Of a stretch of 64,000 nt of DNA, positions 1 through 21,141 are shown piece after piece; the first letter of the stretch is position 1, and the number at the start of each line of letters is the position of its first letter. Location of the stretch: the NCBI GenBank assembly GCA_951406725.2, contig OX597824.1, positions 48,112,001-48,176,000 on the forward strand, in the 5' to 3' direction. This stretch comes from Octopus vulgaris. Lineage: Eukaryota. Both the position numbers and the translations under genes were made by a program. The notes beneath the pieces were generated by a model. That model had not been told where the DNA came from, made no database searches, and worked only from the letters and a program-made list of their open reading frames with translations.

Positions 1-214
1 ATTTTCAAAAAACATCTAGACAAGCTGCTTTCCGGGATCCCAGATGAACCCACTGCAAGGTATGAAGGTAACCTAAGGGCAGCAGCTACAAACTCTCTCT
101 TAGATCAGTGGCCAGCCACGGCAAACTGGACTTAGAGAGGGTAGCAACAAGGGCGGTGCCCCAGCATGGCCTCAGCCGGATGGCTGAAACAAGTAAAAGT
201 AGAGTAAAAGAGTA
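1..214 (+). mobile_element. CR1-like LINE family A, copy 1: 3' end (ORF2 C-terminus 1-135 plus 3' UTR and tail); continues beyond the window start
   Basis: Frame +1 reads [44 protein letters not shown] (TAG 133-135), identical to the end of the 14229-17252 ORF. The 3' UTR has stem-loop TCAGCC-GGAT-GGCTGA (172-187) and an (AGTAAAAG)-like tail running into (TA)n. Confidence 0.95.
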
Positions 215-1640
215 CAATATATATATATACATATATATATACGTACATACATATATATACATACATATATACATACATACATATATATATACATATATAT
301 ATACATACATATATATATACATATACATATATATATACATATACATATATATATACATATATATATATACATATACATATATATATACATACATATATAT
401 ATACATATACATATATATATACATATACATATATATATACATATATATATATACATATACATATATATAATACATACATATATATATATATACATATATA
501 TATATATATATATATACATATACATATATATATATATACATACATATATATATACATATACATATATATATACATACATATATATATATATACATATAAT
601 ATACATATATATATACATATATATATATATACATATATATATATATACATACATATACATATATAAATATATATACATATATATATATATATATATACAT
701 ATATATATATATATATATATATATATATATATATATTATATATATATATACATATATATATATATATATATATATATACATATATATACATACATATACA
801 TACATATATACATACATATATATATATATATATATATATATATATATATATATATATATATATACATATATATATATACATACATATATATATATATATA
901 TATATATATATATATATATATATATATATATATATATATATATATATATACATATATATATATATATATATATATATATATATATAATATATATATATAT
1001 ATATATATATATATATATATATATATATATATATATATATATATATATATATATATATATATATATATATATACATATATATATGGCGATGGCCACAGCT
1101 CATTAGCTGAAACTGGAAAAATCAAAATCATATATACACATATATATATATATATACATATATATATATATACACACACATATATATATATATATATATA
1201 TATATATATATATATATATATATATAAATATATACACATATATACATATATATATATATATATACATATATACACATATATATACATACATACATATATA
1301 TACATATATATATATACATATATATATACATACATACATATATATATATATATATATATATATATATATATATACATATATATATACATACATACATATA
1401 TATATACATATATATATACATACATACATATATATATACATACATACATACATATATATATACATACATACATATATATATACATACATATATATATATA
1501 TATATACATACATATATATACACATACATACATATATATACATATATATATATATATATATATACATACATATATATATACATATATATATATACATACA
1601 TATATATATATATATATACATATATACATATACATATATA
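215..1640. repeat. (TA)n/(TACA)n microsatellite array
   Basis: Direct reading; interrupted only by the stub at 1085-1130. Confidence 0.98.
1085..1130 (+). mobile_element. ~45-bp 3'-terminal stub of a CR1-like LINE (or partner SINE) inside the TA array
   Basis: ATGGCCACAGCTCATTAGCTGAAACTGGAAAAATCAAAATCA matches the family B tail (ATGGCCACAGCTAGTGAGCTGAAACTAGATAAAA, 6368-6401) and keeps the CAGCT-N4-AGCTG stem. Confidence 0.8.
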
Positions 1641-2210
1641 CTCTTTTACTCTTTTACTTGTTTCAGCCATCCGGCTGAGGCCATGCTGGGGCACCGCCCT
1701 TGTTGCTACCCTCTCTAAGTCCAGTTTGCCGTGGCTGGCCACTGATCTAAGAGAGAGTTTGTAGCTGCTGCCCTTAGGTTACCTTCGTACCTTGCAGTGG
1801 GTTCATCTGGGATCCCGGAAAGCAGCTTGTCTAGATGTTTTTGAAAATGTCCACATCCGCATCATGTAGATCTCTTAGTTTTCTTGGCAGTTTGTTGAAA
1901 AGCTGAGGGCCCCTGAACCCCAGGCTATTACAGTATCTGCTCCTTACCCTGGATGTGGAAGACGGGACCTTTGGCACCACACAGTGACGTCCTGTACGGG
2001 GATTGGAACAGCTCTCAATTCCAAAATTTGGTGCTAGTCCCTCCAGGATTTTCCATATGTATATCACTGCATATCTCTCTCGTCTTCGTTCCAAGGAGTA
2101 CAAATTGAGTTCCCTAAGCCTCTCCCAATAGTTCTTTTCTTTCATGGTGGAAATTCTCTTGGTGAAATGTCTTTGGATTGTCTCAAGCTCTGTGGTTAGT
2201 TTGACACTAT
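1641..2210 (-). mobile_element. CR1-like LINE family A, copy 2, 5'-truncated (~570 bp)
   Basis: Nearly identical to 14151-14725. Encodes [19 protein letters not shown]...[21 protein letters not shown]. Homology stops abruptly after GACACTAT at 2210. The tail abuts (TA)n at 1640. Confidence 0.95.
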
Positions 2211-2640
2211 AGATAAGCCAAAATTTTCTTTTCACTTCTTGACCGCCGCAATACATTTGCCTATAACACTAAAAAATGTATTATCTATTTCCTAATACTA
2301 ATACGCTTGTTTTGTTTACATCGTCTTTCCTAAATTCATTTTATGCGCTGATAGTTCCCCCTTCTCCATATCACTTTGTCTGTTCTTCGCCCTAAATTAT
2401 CCTCCATATTTATGCGCCGATAATTTCTCCAACTTCGCGCATTTTTAAGCCAACCCGTCAAGTTCAACCTTTGCATATTCCCGGTGCACCCGCCCTTGCC
2501 CACCCCCACCACCAATACCGGATATCTCTATATTTTTGCTCCATCTATACCGGATGTCGCTACTCCACCACCATTATAGGTGTCTACTCTCCGAACCCCC
2601 CTCTTCAATACGCTATTTCACCATGCATTACCCCTTCCCC
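2211..2640. other. Unclassified ~430-bp CpG-containing island embedded in the TA array (probable non-autonomous element)
   Basis: Unique, relatively GC/CpG-rich sequence bounded by the LINE junction (TA|GATAAGCC) and CCCC|TATATA. No recognisable ORF. Confidence 0.4.
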
Positions 2641-17200: not shown

Positions 17201-17252
17201 TGTCAATAAAGGCTGTCGGTGTGGCACCTGGGCTGGTGTCAGTGGTGGCCAC
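14229..17252 (-). CDS. LINE ORF2: apurinic-like endonuclease + reverse transcriptase (1007 aa from GTG; frame open upstream to 17501)
   Basis: APE motifs [41 protein letters not shown] motifs [49 protein letters not shown]. The C-terminus [20 protein letters not shown] is CR1-type. No stops or frameshifts. Confidence 0.96.
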
Positions 17253-17667
17253 CCTGGGTCCCTTGATTGTGGTGGTCTTGAGTGCTGTTGTGAGTGCCCC
17301 TGGCTCTGAAGACGATGTATCCAGGCCAGTTGTCCCACAATTTTCTCTGCTATTTCCACAAAATTTCTTTGTTCTGCTGCCGCCGTCTGCATTTCCTCTG
17401 CAAATGTGCGCCTTCTCCTTGTTGGGGCATTCCGCACTATGTCTGCATATTTCTGGGGCAGCTTGAATTTGTTCTGGTTTTGGTTTCGGTCTTGGTTTTG
17501 GTTAAGGCATTTTGGTCGAGTGGGTTTGATGCAATTTCCATAGGGCCTGGGATGAGCGAACCTGCATCCTTCCCCTGTTTCTCCATGCCAGCAGGTTCCA
17601 TTCCGGAAGAATTTGCATGTTATCTGGGTTTTCTTGTCCCCAGTTCCTCTCTGTTTTTTCTTCCTCC
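17171..17667 (-). CDS. LINE ORF1, C-terminal ~165 aa, with a CCCH zinc finger (start lost at the TA junction)
   Basis: Unique C-terminal part of the 17171-21136 ORF: RRKKKQ...[24 protein letters not shown] (C-x7-C-x8-C-x3-H, 17552-17617), then an N/Q-rich linker, a helical [25 protein letters not shown] segment and a P/Q-rich tail. Confidence 0.75.
17360..17366 (-). promoter_or_regulatory. Candidate -1 ribosomal frameshift slippery heptamer A_AAU_UUU
   Basis: ORF1 codons AGA AAT TTT give X_XXY_YYZ in the correct phase; a -1 slip enters the ORF2 frame (AAA TTT TGT). Confidence 0.55.
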
Positions 17668-20600
17668 TATATATATATACATATATATACATATATATAT
17701 ATATATATATATATACATATATATATACATATATATATATATATATATATATATATATATATATACATATATATATATATATATATATATATATATATAT
17801 ATATATATATATATATATATATATATATATATATATATATATATATATATATATATATATATATATATATATATATATATATATATATATATATATATAT
17901 ATATATATATATATATATATATATATATATATATATATATATATATATATATATATATATATATATATATATATATATATATATATATATATATATATAT
18001 ATATATATATATATATATATATATATATATATATATATATATATATATATATATATATATATATATATATATATATATATATATATATATATATATATAT
18101 ATACATATATATATATATATATATATATATATATATACATATATATATATATATATATATATATATATATATATATATATATATACATATATATATACAT
18201 ATATATATATATATATATATATATATATATATATATATATATATATATATATATATATATATATATATATATATATATATATATATATATATATATATAT
18301 ATATATATATATATATATATATATATATATATATATATATATATATATATATATATATATATATATATATATATATATACATATATATATATATATATAT
18401 ATATATATATATATATATATATATATACATATATATATATATATACATACATATATATATATATATATATATATATATATATATATATATATATATATAT
18501 ATATATATATATATATATATATATATATATATATATATATATATATATATATATATATATATATATATATATATATATATATACATATATATATATATAT
18601 ATATATATATATATATATATATATATATATATATATATATATATATATATATATATATATATATATATATATATATATATATATATATATATATATATAT
18701 ATATATATATATATATATATATATATATATATATATATATATATATATATATATATATATATATATATATATATATATATATATATATATATATATATAT
18801 ATATATATATATATATATATATATATATATATATATATATATATATATATATATATATAATATATATATATATATATATATATATATATATATATATATA
18901 TATATATATATATATATATTGTGTGTGTGTGTGTGTGTGTGTGTGTGTGTGTGTGTGTGTGTGTGTATATATATACATATATATATATTATATATATATA
19001 TATATATATATATATATATATATATATATATATATATATATATATATATATATATATATATATATATATATATATATATATATATATATATATATATATA
19101 TATATATATATATATATATATATATATATATATATATATATATATATATATATATATATATATATATATATATATATATACATATATATATATATATATA
19201 TATATATATATATATATATATATATATATATATATATATATATATATATATATATATATATACATATATACATATATATACATATATATATATATATATA
19301 TATATATATATATATATATATATATATATATATATATATATATATATATACATACATATATATACATATATATATATATATATATATATATATATATATA
19401 TATATACATATATATATATATATATATATATATATATATATATATATATATATATATATATATATACATATATATATATACATATATATATATACATATA
19501 TATATACATATATATATATATATATATATATATATATATATATATATATATATATATATATATATATATATATATATATATATATATATATACATATATA
19601 TATATATATATATATATATATATATATATATATATATATATATATATATATATATATATATATATATATATATATATATATATATATATATATATATATA
19701 TATATATATATATATATATATATATATATATATATATATATATATATATATATATATATATATATATATATATATATATATATATATATATATATATATA
19801 TATATATATATATATATACATATATATATATATATATATATATACATATATATATATATATATACACATATATACATATATACACATATATACACATATA
19901 TACATATACATATATATATACATATAACATATATATATATATATATATATATATATATATATATATATATATATATATACATATATATATACATATATAT
20001 ATATATATATATATATATATATATATATATATATATATATATATATATATATATATATATATATATATATATATATATATATATATATATATATATATAT
20101 ATATATATATATATATATATATATATATATATATATATATATACATATATATATATATATATATATACATATATATACATATATATATATATATATATAT
20201 ATATATATATATATATATATATATATATATATATACATATATATATATATATATATATATATATATATATATATATATATATATATATATATATATATAT
20301 ATATATATATATATATATATATATATATATACATACATATATATATATATATATATATATATATATATATATATATATATATAATATATACATATATATA
20401 CATATATATATATACTATATATACATATATATATATATATATATATATATATATATATATATACATATATATATATATATATATATATATATACATATAT
20501 ATATACATATATATATACATATATATATATATATATAATATATATATATATATATATATATATATATATATATATATATATACATATATATATATATATA

Positions 20601-21141
20601 TATATATATATATATATATATATATATATATATATATATATATATATATATATATATATATATATATATATATATATATATATATATATATATATATATA
20701 TATATATATATATATATATATATATATATATATATATATATATATATATATATATATACATATATATATATATATATATATATATATATATATATATATA
20801 TATATATATATATATATATATATATATATATATATATATATATATATATATATATATATATATATATATATATATATATATACATATATATATATATATA
20901 TATATATATATACATATATATATACATATATAAATATACATATATATACATAAATATACATATATATATATATATACATAAATATACATATATATATATA
21001 CATATATATATACATATATATATACATATATATATATATATATAATATATATATACATATATATATATATATATATATATATATACATACACACATACAT
21101 ATATATATACATATATATATATATATATATATACATACATA
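17668..21141. repeat. ~3.5-kb near-pure (TA)n array with (TG)n at 18920-18966
   Basis: Direct reading. Confidence 0.98.

What the first reader, a model, noticed from the sequence alone, without database searches (positions are those of the whole stretch)
1..21141. A young CR1-like LINE family that appears to live inside (TA)n microsatellite arrays
Seen: four near-identical family A copies (1-214 +, 1641-2210 -, 7611-8760 -, 14151-17667 -), family B (3584-6411), family C (9548-12265) and a 45-bp stub (1085-1130) all lie in TA arrays, in both orientations. Every visible 3' tail runs directly into TA repeat. No CR1-like copy was seen in the other 43 kb. The copies differ at diagnostic sites (for example AAAAGCTG/GACGTCC in copies 2 and 3 versus AACAGCTG/GACGACC in copy 4) and have different 5' truncation points, so they look like independent insertions. 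The family A tail ends in ...GAGTA, which could pair with a nicked (TA)n primer. Known: microsatellite-targeting non-LTR elements are established in the R1, Tx1 and R4 clades, whereas CR1 elements are generally regarded as non-specific. Inference: this is a TA-targeting CR1 lineage using microsatellites as a safe harbour. One copy has an intact ORF2, so the family may still be active.
Basis: partly seen in the sequence, partly recalled or inferred. Interest (0 to 1): 0.82.

Follow-up and report, generated by a model that had tools for sequence, protein, structure and literature searches.

The report
Octopus LINE copies inside TA repeats
Several near-identical copies of a jumping gene (a LINE, likely of the CR1 group and likely from an octopus) sit inside one long TA-repeat tract and none sits in the rest of this window, which suggests the family likely prefers TA repeats, but the evidence is one locus that is likely partly mis-assembled and the genome-wide test could not be done.

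Summary
The cluster is real in the assembly: 6 of 6 LINE pieces with a visible tail run into TA repeat, and no such LINE lies in 21142-64000. About 5.1 of 8.6 kb of array touches no tail, so tail-seeded microsatellites cannot explain it alone. Copy A4 has an open 1,090-codon endonuclease-RT frame but is cut inside ORF1. Its closest named relative is from Argonauta. Copy A2's 5' end meets 430 bp of non-TA DNA. The 5' 180 bp of A3 and all of 'family C' are overwritten with TA runs, likely a consensus artefact; C has no RT or tail. A2 and A3 may be one locus shown twice across a gap. A SINE sharing the tail sits in non-TA DNA, and an RTE-like stub and a Tc1/mariner also sit at the array. A mere preference for TATA would already put 87% of sites in the array. 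No genome is held and read mapping gave no usable flank count. Verdict: a TA-run preference is plausible (about 0.5); strict microsatellite targeting is unproven (about 0.3).

The parts
1..214 (+). Family A copy A1, 3' end only (5' part lies outside the window)
   Evidence: 98.6% to A4 3305-3517; tail runs into TA array
215..1640 (.). (TA)n/(TACA) array holding the stub, between the tails of A1 and A2
1085..1130 (+). 46-bp tail-only stub, family-B-like, TA on both sides
   Evidence: TA share 0.96 and 0.72; folds into two hairpins like the A and B tails
1639..2210 (-). Family A copy A2, 5'-truncated; 3' flank TA, 5' flank not TA
   Evidence: 99.0% to A4 2943-3517; junctions
2211..2640 (.). 430 bp of unexplained C/T-rich non-TA sequence at A2's 5' end
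   Evidence: no similarity to A4, B, C above shuffles or to homologous proteins
2641..3583 (.). TA array that touches no element tail
3584..6411 (+). Family B copy, 5'-truncated in the endonuclease, broken frame, TA on both sides
   Evidence: 67.8% nt to A4; 86% aa to P0001; Pfam endonuclease and RT hits
6446..6485 (-). Tail stub of an unrelated, RTE-like repeat inside the array (RTE label recalled, not tested)
   Evidence: 90% to the 3' end of the repeat at 44700-44822
7477..7576 (.). Assembly gap of 100 N
7609..8760 (-). Family A copy A3; 8581-8760 overwritten in register by TA runs
   Evidence: 95.6% to A4 2453-3512; colinear anchors
8761..9547 (.). TA array between the 5' ends of A3 and C
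9548..12265 (+). 'Family C': LINE-like 5' part and endonuclease remnant, 30% TA runs, no RT, no tail
12266..14150 (.). TA array at A4's 3' end, with a 157-bp non-TA insert at 13544-13700
14151..17667 (-). Family A copy A4: end of ORF1 with a CCCH-like finger, whole ORF2, 3' double hairpin and octamer tail; TA on both sides
14229..17501 (-). Open frame of 1,090 codons holding ORF2 (AP-type endonuclease + reverse transcriptase); endonuclease starts near 17190
   Evidence: Pfam RVT_1 E 3e-30, Exo_endo_phos E 7e-10; aligns to human L1 ORF2 residues 10-675
14151..14212 (-). Shared 3' tail: two hairpins, then (AAAAGAGT)-type repeats ending GAGTA
   Evidence: also shared by B, the stub and the SINE
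17668..21141 (.). 3.5-kb TA array at A4's 5' end, touching no tail
21142..22403 (+). Broken Tc1/mariner-type DNA transposon, TA at both ends, at the array's edge
   Evidence: terminal inverted repeats; transposase-like frames with stops
45722..46098 (-). tRNA-head SINE with the same 3' tail, in non-TA DNA
   Evidence: 81% over 53 bp to A4's tail; flanks

Best explanation
These are 5'-truncated copies of an endonuclease-RT LINE lineage, likely octopod and likely CR1-group, that likely inserts preferentially into alternating TA runs: its endonuclease would nick at a TpA step, the RNA's last two bases (UA) would pair with the nicked TA end, and reverse transcription would start there. Shown: domains with catalytic motifs in place, the shared tail ending GAGTA, TA at 6 of 6 tails and at 5 of 6 visible 5' ends, both orientations. 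Inferred: that the arrays came first, that the endonuclease makes the choice, and the pairing step. The preference need not be for long arrays: a site of four or more alternating bases is enough to give this picture, because the array holds most such sites in the window. Both orientations follow because (TA)n reads the same on both strands. 'Safe harbour' would be a consequence, and was not tested.
For: 6 of 6 LINE tails in arrays that make up 17% of non-element sequence (8,646 of 50,243 bp): 2.6e-5 under uniform insertion, 0.014 if only a TA dinucleotide is needed, 0.45 if TATA is needed (post hoc, one locus). About 5.1 kb of array touches no tail. Two families 68% alike (A and B) plus a stub share the pattern. 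Four other repeat families in the window put 1 of 15 non-query hits in the array. In 12 of 13 array segments the C interruptions lie on the + strand whichever way the neighbouring element points. A more distant family from another host had 0 of 10 3' and 0 of 8 5' junctions in TA. One-to-several-base tail-target overlap is described for CR1, L2 and RTE LINEs (PMC6007223, passages). A4 groups with four close proteins, one from Argonauta, at support 1.0.
Against: One locus, picked because it looked clustered. A2's 5' flank is not TA; A3's 5' end and C are TA-overwritten; A2 and A3 may be one insertion shown twice. The tail-sharing SINE is in non-TA DNA. In run X3 the best-supported loose-end group at the tail (18 contigs, agreement 0.57) is a mixed A/T-rich string, not clean (TA)n; only 6 of 461 groups were shown. 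The three clean family A 3' junctions are not in one phase (GAGTA then CA, TA or AT). The strand bias of interruptions is also seen in 8 of 9 small TA tracts elsewhere in the window, so it does not prove one ancestral array. The control families look older (68-91% to their query) and may predate the array; the outside control has little power (1.2% of its loci are TA runs). Two-base pairing alone gives only about threefold enrichment (0.49 against 0.17).
Confidence: 0.5

Rival explanations
1. The array is a local sink, not a family target: long (TA)n DNA breaks easily and tolerates inserts, so any active element accumulates there, possibly at breaks the element did not make, while the family inserts broadly elsewhere.
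For: An RTE-like stub, a Tc1/mariner and unexplained inserts (2211-2640, 6840-7455, 13544-13700) are also in or at the array. TA-rich loci are break hotspots in human cells (PMC13645644, abstract). O. vulgaris has TE hotspots with young elements (PMC13282606, passages). The tail-sharing SINE is outside TA.
Against: The inserts are dominated by one LINE lineage (7 pieces) while four other families give 1 of 15 hits in the array; tails are intact at 6 of 6, as expected of ordinary target-primed insertion.
Confidence: 0.22
2. The cluster is mainly an assembly product: reads from several TA-flanked or unrelated loci were joined through their TA arrays, with mixed consensus and a duplicated haplotype around the gap.
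For: 100-N gap inside the cluster; in-register TA overwriting of A3 and of C; homopolymer indels in A2 and A3; A2 and A3 share two substitutions, point the same way and flank the gap.
Against: A4 is clean over 3.5 kb with an open frame; A1 and A2 tails differ and the array between them is not a mirror image; A2 and A3 differ at 3 of 552 sites and in their 5' neighbours. Joining through arrays would still need each copy to have TA on at least one side, so it weakens the clustering more than the TA association.
Confidence: 0.13
3. Copies inserted at short TA sites anywhere, and the TA runs grew afterwards at both junctions, so the long arrays are a result rather than the target.
For: For a TA-targeting plant transposon, occupied sites had about 15 repeats per flank against 9 at empty sites (PMC4486113, passages). 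The tail itself ends in TA.
Against: Arrays are 0.4-3.5 kb and lie back to back with almost no unique DNA between elements; family A copies differ by at most about 1.6%, leaving little time.
Confidence: 0.1
4. The TA arrays were seeded only by the elements' own 3' tails.
For: 6 of 6 tails end in or next to TA, and LINE tails are a known source of microsatellites (PMC3812793, search listing only).
Against: About 5.1 kb of array (2641-3583, 8761-9547, 17668-21141) touches no tail; 3 clean 5' junctions are in TA; array interruptions follow the chromosome strand, not the element.
Confidence: 0.05

Closest known systems
CR1-group LINEs (CR1 clade; O. vulgaris is reported to have 169 CR1 families, 13 recently active: PMC13282606)
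   Same: N-terminal AP-type endonuclease, RT, no LTR, 5' truncation, 3' hairpin plus short-repeat tail ending in a small overlap with the target, a SINE sharing the tail.
   Different: CR1 is not listed among site-specific clades in the passages read (PMC6007223 names only Tx1 and R1 among APE clades; PMC4640811 likewise). This lineage is a separate branch from the other CR1-like loci fetched and has a CCCH-like finger in ORF1, a word absent from the ORF1 survey PMC4120745.
Microsatellite-specific non-LTR elements: Mino (R1 clade, AC repeats; PMC3124438 passage), Togen ((TG)n) and some HERO families (PMC4640811 passages); Waldo, Kibi, Koshi and Dong recalled
   Same: Copies lie inside a simple repeat on both sides.
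   Different: Other clades and other repeats; their targets have a strand, whereas (TA)n has none, so both orientations are expected here. Their specificity is shown on many copies; here on one locus.
(TA)n-biased Penelope-like elements Naiad, Neptune and Hydra (PMC8557442 passages; Naiads occur in Octopus spp.)
   Same: Retroelements with (TA)n as preferred target, in the same host group.
   Different: GIY-YIG endonuclease and a different RT class; here an AP-type endonuclease.
(TA)n-targeting DNA transposons MuTAnT, Micron, TAFT (PMC4486113 passages) and SaTar arrays (PMC5907723 abstract)
   Same: Same target and, for SaTar, the same look: unrelated elements strung side by side in microsatellite without nesting.
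   Different: Cut-and-paste transposons of plants, not retrotransposons.

Membership tests
APE-type non-LTR retrotransposon (LINE) | N-terminal AP-type endonuclease followed by RT in one frame | tested here: met
   Pfam Exo_endo_phos 127-326 and RVT_1 618-834; alignment to L1 ORF2; catalytic motifs present in A4
APE-type non-LTR retrotransposon (LINE) | Shared 3' end, variable 5' truncation, no LTR | tested here: met
   A2, A3, A4 share the 3' end and start at different points; summed contig depth in X3 falls from 3' to 5'
CR1 clade | RT groups with named CR1 references in a phylogeny | not testable with these tools
   No named Repbase or Dfam reference could be fetched; the tree of 89 unnamed or host-contaminant sequences has no clade labels
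CR1 clade | 3' stem-loop followed by short tandem repeats instead of poly(A) | tested here: met
   Two hairpins in A and B tails (z -1.7 and -2.5 against shuffles, modest) and octamer-type repeats; this feature is shared with L2 and RTE, so it does not single out CR1
CR1 clade | No RNase H and no C-terminal zinc knuckle in ORF2; CR1-type C-terminal motifs | tested here: inconclusive
   Pfam lists only three families, none RNase H or knuckle; likeness of the C-terminal motifs to CR1 rather than L2 is recalled, not from a call
Sequence-specific LINE (as in R1 and Tx1 clades) | Most genomic copies flanked by the same target on both sides | tested here: inconclusive
   One locus: 6 of 6 tails, 5 of 6 5' ends (3 clean); SINE 0 of 2 ends. 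Genome not held; raw runs did not hold the family; contig loose ends mostly not shown
Sequence-specific LINE (as in R1 and Tx1 clades) | Fixed nick position in the target | tested here: inconclusive
   A1, A2 and A4 tails are followed by CA, TA and AT; tail slippage or consensus error could hide a fixed phase
Sequence-specific LINE (as in R1 and Tx1 clades) | Endonuclease cuts the target better than control DNA | not testable with these tools
   needs a nicking assay
Sequence-specific LINE (as in R1 and Tx1 clades) | Target-site duplication and empty-site allele | not testable with these tools
   a duplication cannot be read inside (TA)n; no long reads were served
R1 or Tx1 clade | RT groups with R1 or Tx1 references | not tested
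   no references available; not claimed

The most novel reading that the evidence does not exclude
An octopod CR1-group lineage (families A, B and their relatives back to Argonauta) has become sequence-specific for (TA)n microsatellites, making it a third AP-endonuclease lineage with target specificity after R1 and Tx1, the first to use a strand-less palindromic repeat, and one that builds multi-kilobase chains of LINEs inside TA arrays across octopus genomes.
Probability: 0.3. Interest if true: 0.75.

Novelty: new variant of a known kind. Interest (0 to 1): 0.5.

Why it matters
Reviews name only the R1 and Tx1 clades as site-specific among AP-endonuclease LINEs (PMC6007223, PMC4640811; passages). 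A CR1-group case would be an independent origin of specificity with close non-specific relatives for comparison, so the residues or the mechanism (enzyme preference, tail pairing or use of TA-cruciform breaks) could be tested directly. It would also mean that a high-copy, recently amplified octopus LINE hides in the sequence that assemblies handle worst. If it proves a short-motif bias or a local hot spot, the finding is ordinary.

Tried and rejected
Genome-wide flank count: no genome held. Raw-read runs X21-X23 laid 0, 6 and 0 reads of 12.9 million each, so they give no test; X3 laid 6,027 contig pieces but showed 6 of 461 loose-end groups, and its 114 records that 'run over the ends' cannot be read as TA-flanked. 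Metagenome scan: 1 of 156 candidate stretches confirmed, without a 3' end. Viral collection: 0 tail matches, 0 of 10 candidates confirmed. Prokaryote-genome contaminants: 80 loci kept of 371, all 27-41% identical, none of this lineage; 4 of 31 with enough downstream DNA had (TA)6+ within about 700 bp of the expected end; two of those (L039, L043) were read and a third (L075) printed, with junctions in non-TA DNA, L007 was not read. Rfam: 0 matches. Protein atlas: only generic endonuclease-RT clusters. Fold-back artefact for A1/A2 rejected: tails differ and array interruptions do not mirror. The idea that 2211-2640 is noisy family A sequence was rejected (score 89 against shuffles 94 +/- 5). 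A host gene on the minus strand as the cause of the strand bias was looked for with crude exon scans and not established. Earlier scan notes: nothing on this genome or family. No structure model of the endonuclease was obtained.
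Full report
What is there. The first 21 kb alternate between TA-run arrays and inserts; the other 43 kb hold only short TA tracts. 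Self-search finds four family A pieces (1-214 +, 1639-2210 -, 7609-8760 -, 14151-17667 -), a family B copy (3584-6411 +, 67.8% to A4) and no LINE body beyond 17667. A4 carries an open 1,090-codon frame with AP-type endonuclease and RT domains. Upstream, in another frame, lies the end of ORF1 with a CCCH-like finger below Pfam's cut-off (E 0.007). A4 therefore starts inside ORF1 and is not a complete element. All tailed pieces end in two hairpins and short A-rich repeats; family A ends GAGTA.

Host and lineage. The best named relative is an Argonauta hians protein at 56%; three unnamed proteins are 63-65% identical, and the next tier is about 42%. In a FastTree RT tree of 89 sequences, A4 and these four form a clade at support 1.0, inside a wider group that is separate from most of the other loci fetched (midpoint root, no named clade references; nine near-identical loci and rows with stops left out; family B not included). 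Twenty of 24 listed sequencing runs hold 75-93% of A4's sampled words, from 10 studies and 6 organism labels. In run X3 summed contig depth is 0.26-0.31 million over the 3' part of ORF2, 0.009-0.075 million at the 5' end and 3.7 million at the tail, against 56-86 for single joints; the tool warns this is no copy number, but it fits an abundant, 5'-truncated family whose tail is shared with other repeats. The CR1 label rests on anatomy and on recalled motifs; it could not be tested against named references.

Evidence for a TA preference. Six of 6 LINE pieces with a tail (A1, stub, A2, B, A3, A4) run into TA repeat, and 5 of 6 visible 5' ends do. Arrays are 8,646 bp against 41,597 bp of other sequence; 6 of 6 has probability 2.6e-5 per base, 0.014 if a TA dinucleotide is required and 0.45 if TATA is required. 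These figures are post hoc and the inserts are not independent, but they show two things: uniform insertion and two-base pairing alone fit poorly, and a four-base alternating site is already enough. About 5.1 kb of array (2641-3583, 8761-9547, 17668-21141) touches no tail, which rules out tail seeding as the sole cause. In 12 of 13 array segments the C interruptions lie on the + strand regardless of element direction. Four other repeat families, queried with copies chosen from outside the array, put 1 of 15 further hits inside it. A distant family from an unidentified host had 0 of 10 3' and 0 of 8 5' junctions in TA.

Evidence against, and corrections. A2's 5' end meets 430 bp of non-TA DNA of unknown origin. 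A3's 5' 180 bp is family A sequence overwritten in register by TA runs, and 806 of C's 2,718 bases are TA runs; C shows weak endonuclease similarity only and has neither RT nor tail. Replacement that roughly keeps length is not what slippage does; I infer a consensus of element-bearing and array-only reads. That removes two of the five TA 5' junctions from the clean set, though it may hint at empty alleles. A2 and A3 share two substitutions, point the same way and lie either side of a 100-N gap, so they may be one insertion. A tRNA-head SINE with the same tail lies at 45722-46098 in non-TA DNA, which makes 6 of 7 tails in all; it is only 81% alike and may have been moved by an older partner. 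An RTE-like stub and a Tc1/mariner also sit at the array. The strand bias of interruptions appears in 8 of 9 small tracts elsewhere, so it is weak support for one ancestral array. The control families look older than family A, and the outside control has little power (1,018 of 83,593 bp in TA runs).

The decisive test failed for lack of data. No genome is held. The three raw-read runs laid 0, 6 and 0 reads. X3's contigs cover all 30 bins, but only 6 of 461 loose-end groups were printed; the best-supported group at the tail (18 contigs, agreement 0.57) is a mixed A/T-rich string and not clean (TA)n. Short-read contigs also break at long TA runs, so they would under-report such flanks. Collection scans found no member of this lineage with flanks.

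Mechanism. Most likely (0.5): target-primed insertion with a bias for alternating TA DNA. The endonuclease would nick a TpA step, the RNA's terminal UA would pair with the freed TA end, and copying would stop early to give 5'-truncated inserts in either orientation. Tail-target overlap of one to several bases is described for CR1, L2 and RTE LINEs (PMC6007223, passages). The nick preference and the pairing are inferred. A4 and its three closest relatives share a two-residue insertion just after the catalytic tyrosine motif, absent from the 11 more distant rows printed; this is a lead only. Rivals: a fragile, tolerant array that collects whatever is active (0.22; TA-rich loci are break hotspots in human cells, PMC13645644, abstract); a mainly assembly-made cluster (0.13); arrays grown after insertion at short TA sites (0.10; PMC4486113, passages); pure tail seeding (0.05).

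Comparison with what is known. Passages of PMC6007223 and PMC4640811 name only Tx1 and R1 as site-specific among AP-endonuclease clades; PMC4120745 (passages) says specificity is relaxed in most such LINEs. Microsatellite targets are known for Mino (PMC3124438, passages), Togen and some HERO families. (TA)n is a known preferred target of Penelope-like Naiad, Neptune and Hydra elements, and Naiads occur in Octopus (PMC8557442, passages), and of plant DNA transposons (PMC4486113, passages; PMC5907723, abstract). The O. vulgaris repeat annotation lists 13 recently active CR1 families and does not use the word 'target' (PMC13282606: part 1 of 3 of the text, passages and a search of its one supplement). 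Passages of PMC5786205, PMC3747384, PMC10294476, PMC13708176, PMC9115989 and PMC13295347 added nothing on this point. Nine searches on target choice or octopus repeats listed no paper whose title or abstract reports a (TA)n-targeting CR1; most listed papers were seen only as listings. Repbase and Dfam entries, Kojima and Fujiwara 2004, Ichiyanagi and Okada 2008 and the octopus SINE papers of the 1990s could not be read and may bear on novelty; supplements other than that of PMC13282606 were not examined.

Verdict. Observation partly confirmed; interpretation partly supported. A TA-run bias in an octopod CR1-like lineage is a fair lead and cheap to test on a public assembly. It is not shown from this one, likely partly mis-assembled, locus. 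Novelty: new variant of a known kind. Interest 0.5; strict (TA)n specificity has probability about 0.3 and would deserve 0.75.

Noticed in passing
window 8581-8760 and 9548-12265: LINE sequence replaced in register by TA runs; likely a consensus of element-bearing and array-only reads, but a real mutational process was not excluded.
   Followed up: partly
window 45602-45719: A 58-bp-arm, 97% inverted repeat with a 2-base loop directly abuts the 3' end of the tail-sharing SINE. Like (TA)n it could form a cruciform; one case only.
   Followed up: no
window 51924-53189: A 441-bp-arm, 97% inverted repeat encloses a (CTT)-rich tract and a nested 119-bp-arm inverted repeat.
   Followed up: no
window 2211-2640 and 6840-7455: Two C/T-rich, G-poor stretches with no match in the window or among the fetched proteins; the second ends at the gap. 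They may be poor consensus or unknown inserts.
   Followed up: partly
window 21142-22403: Broken Tc1/mariner-type transposon with terminal inverted repeats and TA at both ends, at the edge of the array.
   Followed up: partly
window 14212 (run X3): Several contigs join position 14212, the start of the first tail hairpin, back to another tail or to other parts of the element, which suggests tail-only stubs and tandem tails are common in this family.
   Followed up: no
window 17171-17667 (-): ORF1 ends with a CCCH-like finger and overlaps the start of the endonuclease, whose first catalytic motif lies upstream of the first ATG of the ORF2 frame; P0042 has a similar finger in frame with its endonuclease.
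   Followed up: partly
window 1-64000: TA tracts carry their C interruptions on the + strand almost everywhere, inside and outside the big array; cause not found.
   Followed up: partly
L020, L021, L022, L025, L026, L033, L035, L039, L043, L075: Ten 94-99% identical copies of one animal LINE family lie in contigs filed under a bacterial genome bin; many of the 80 loci look like host contamination.
   Followed up: partly
window 18920-18966: A single (GT)n run of opposite polarity sits inside the long TA array.
   Followed up: no
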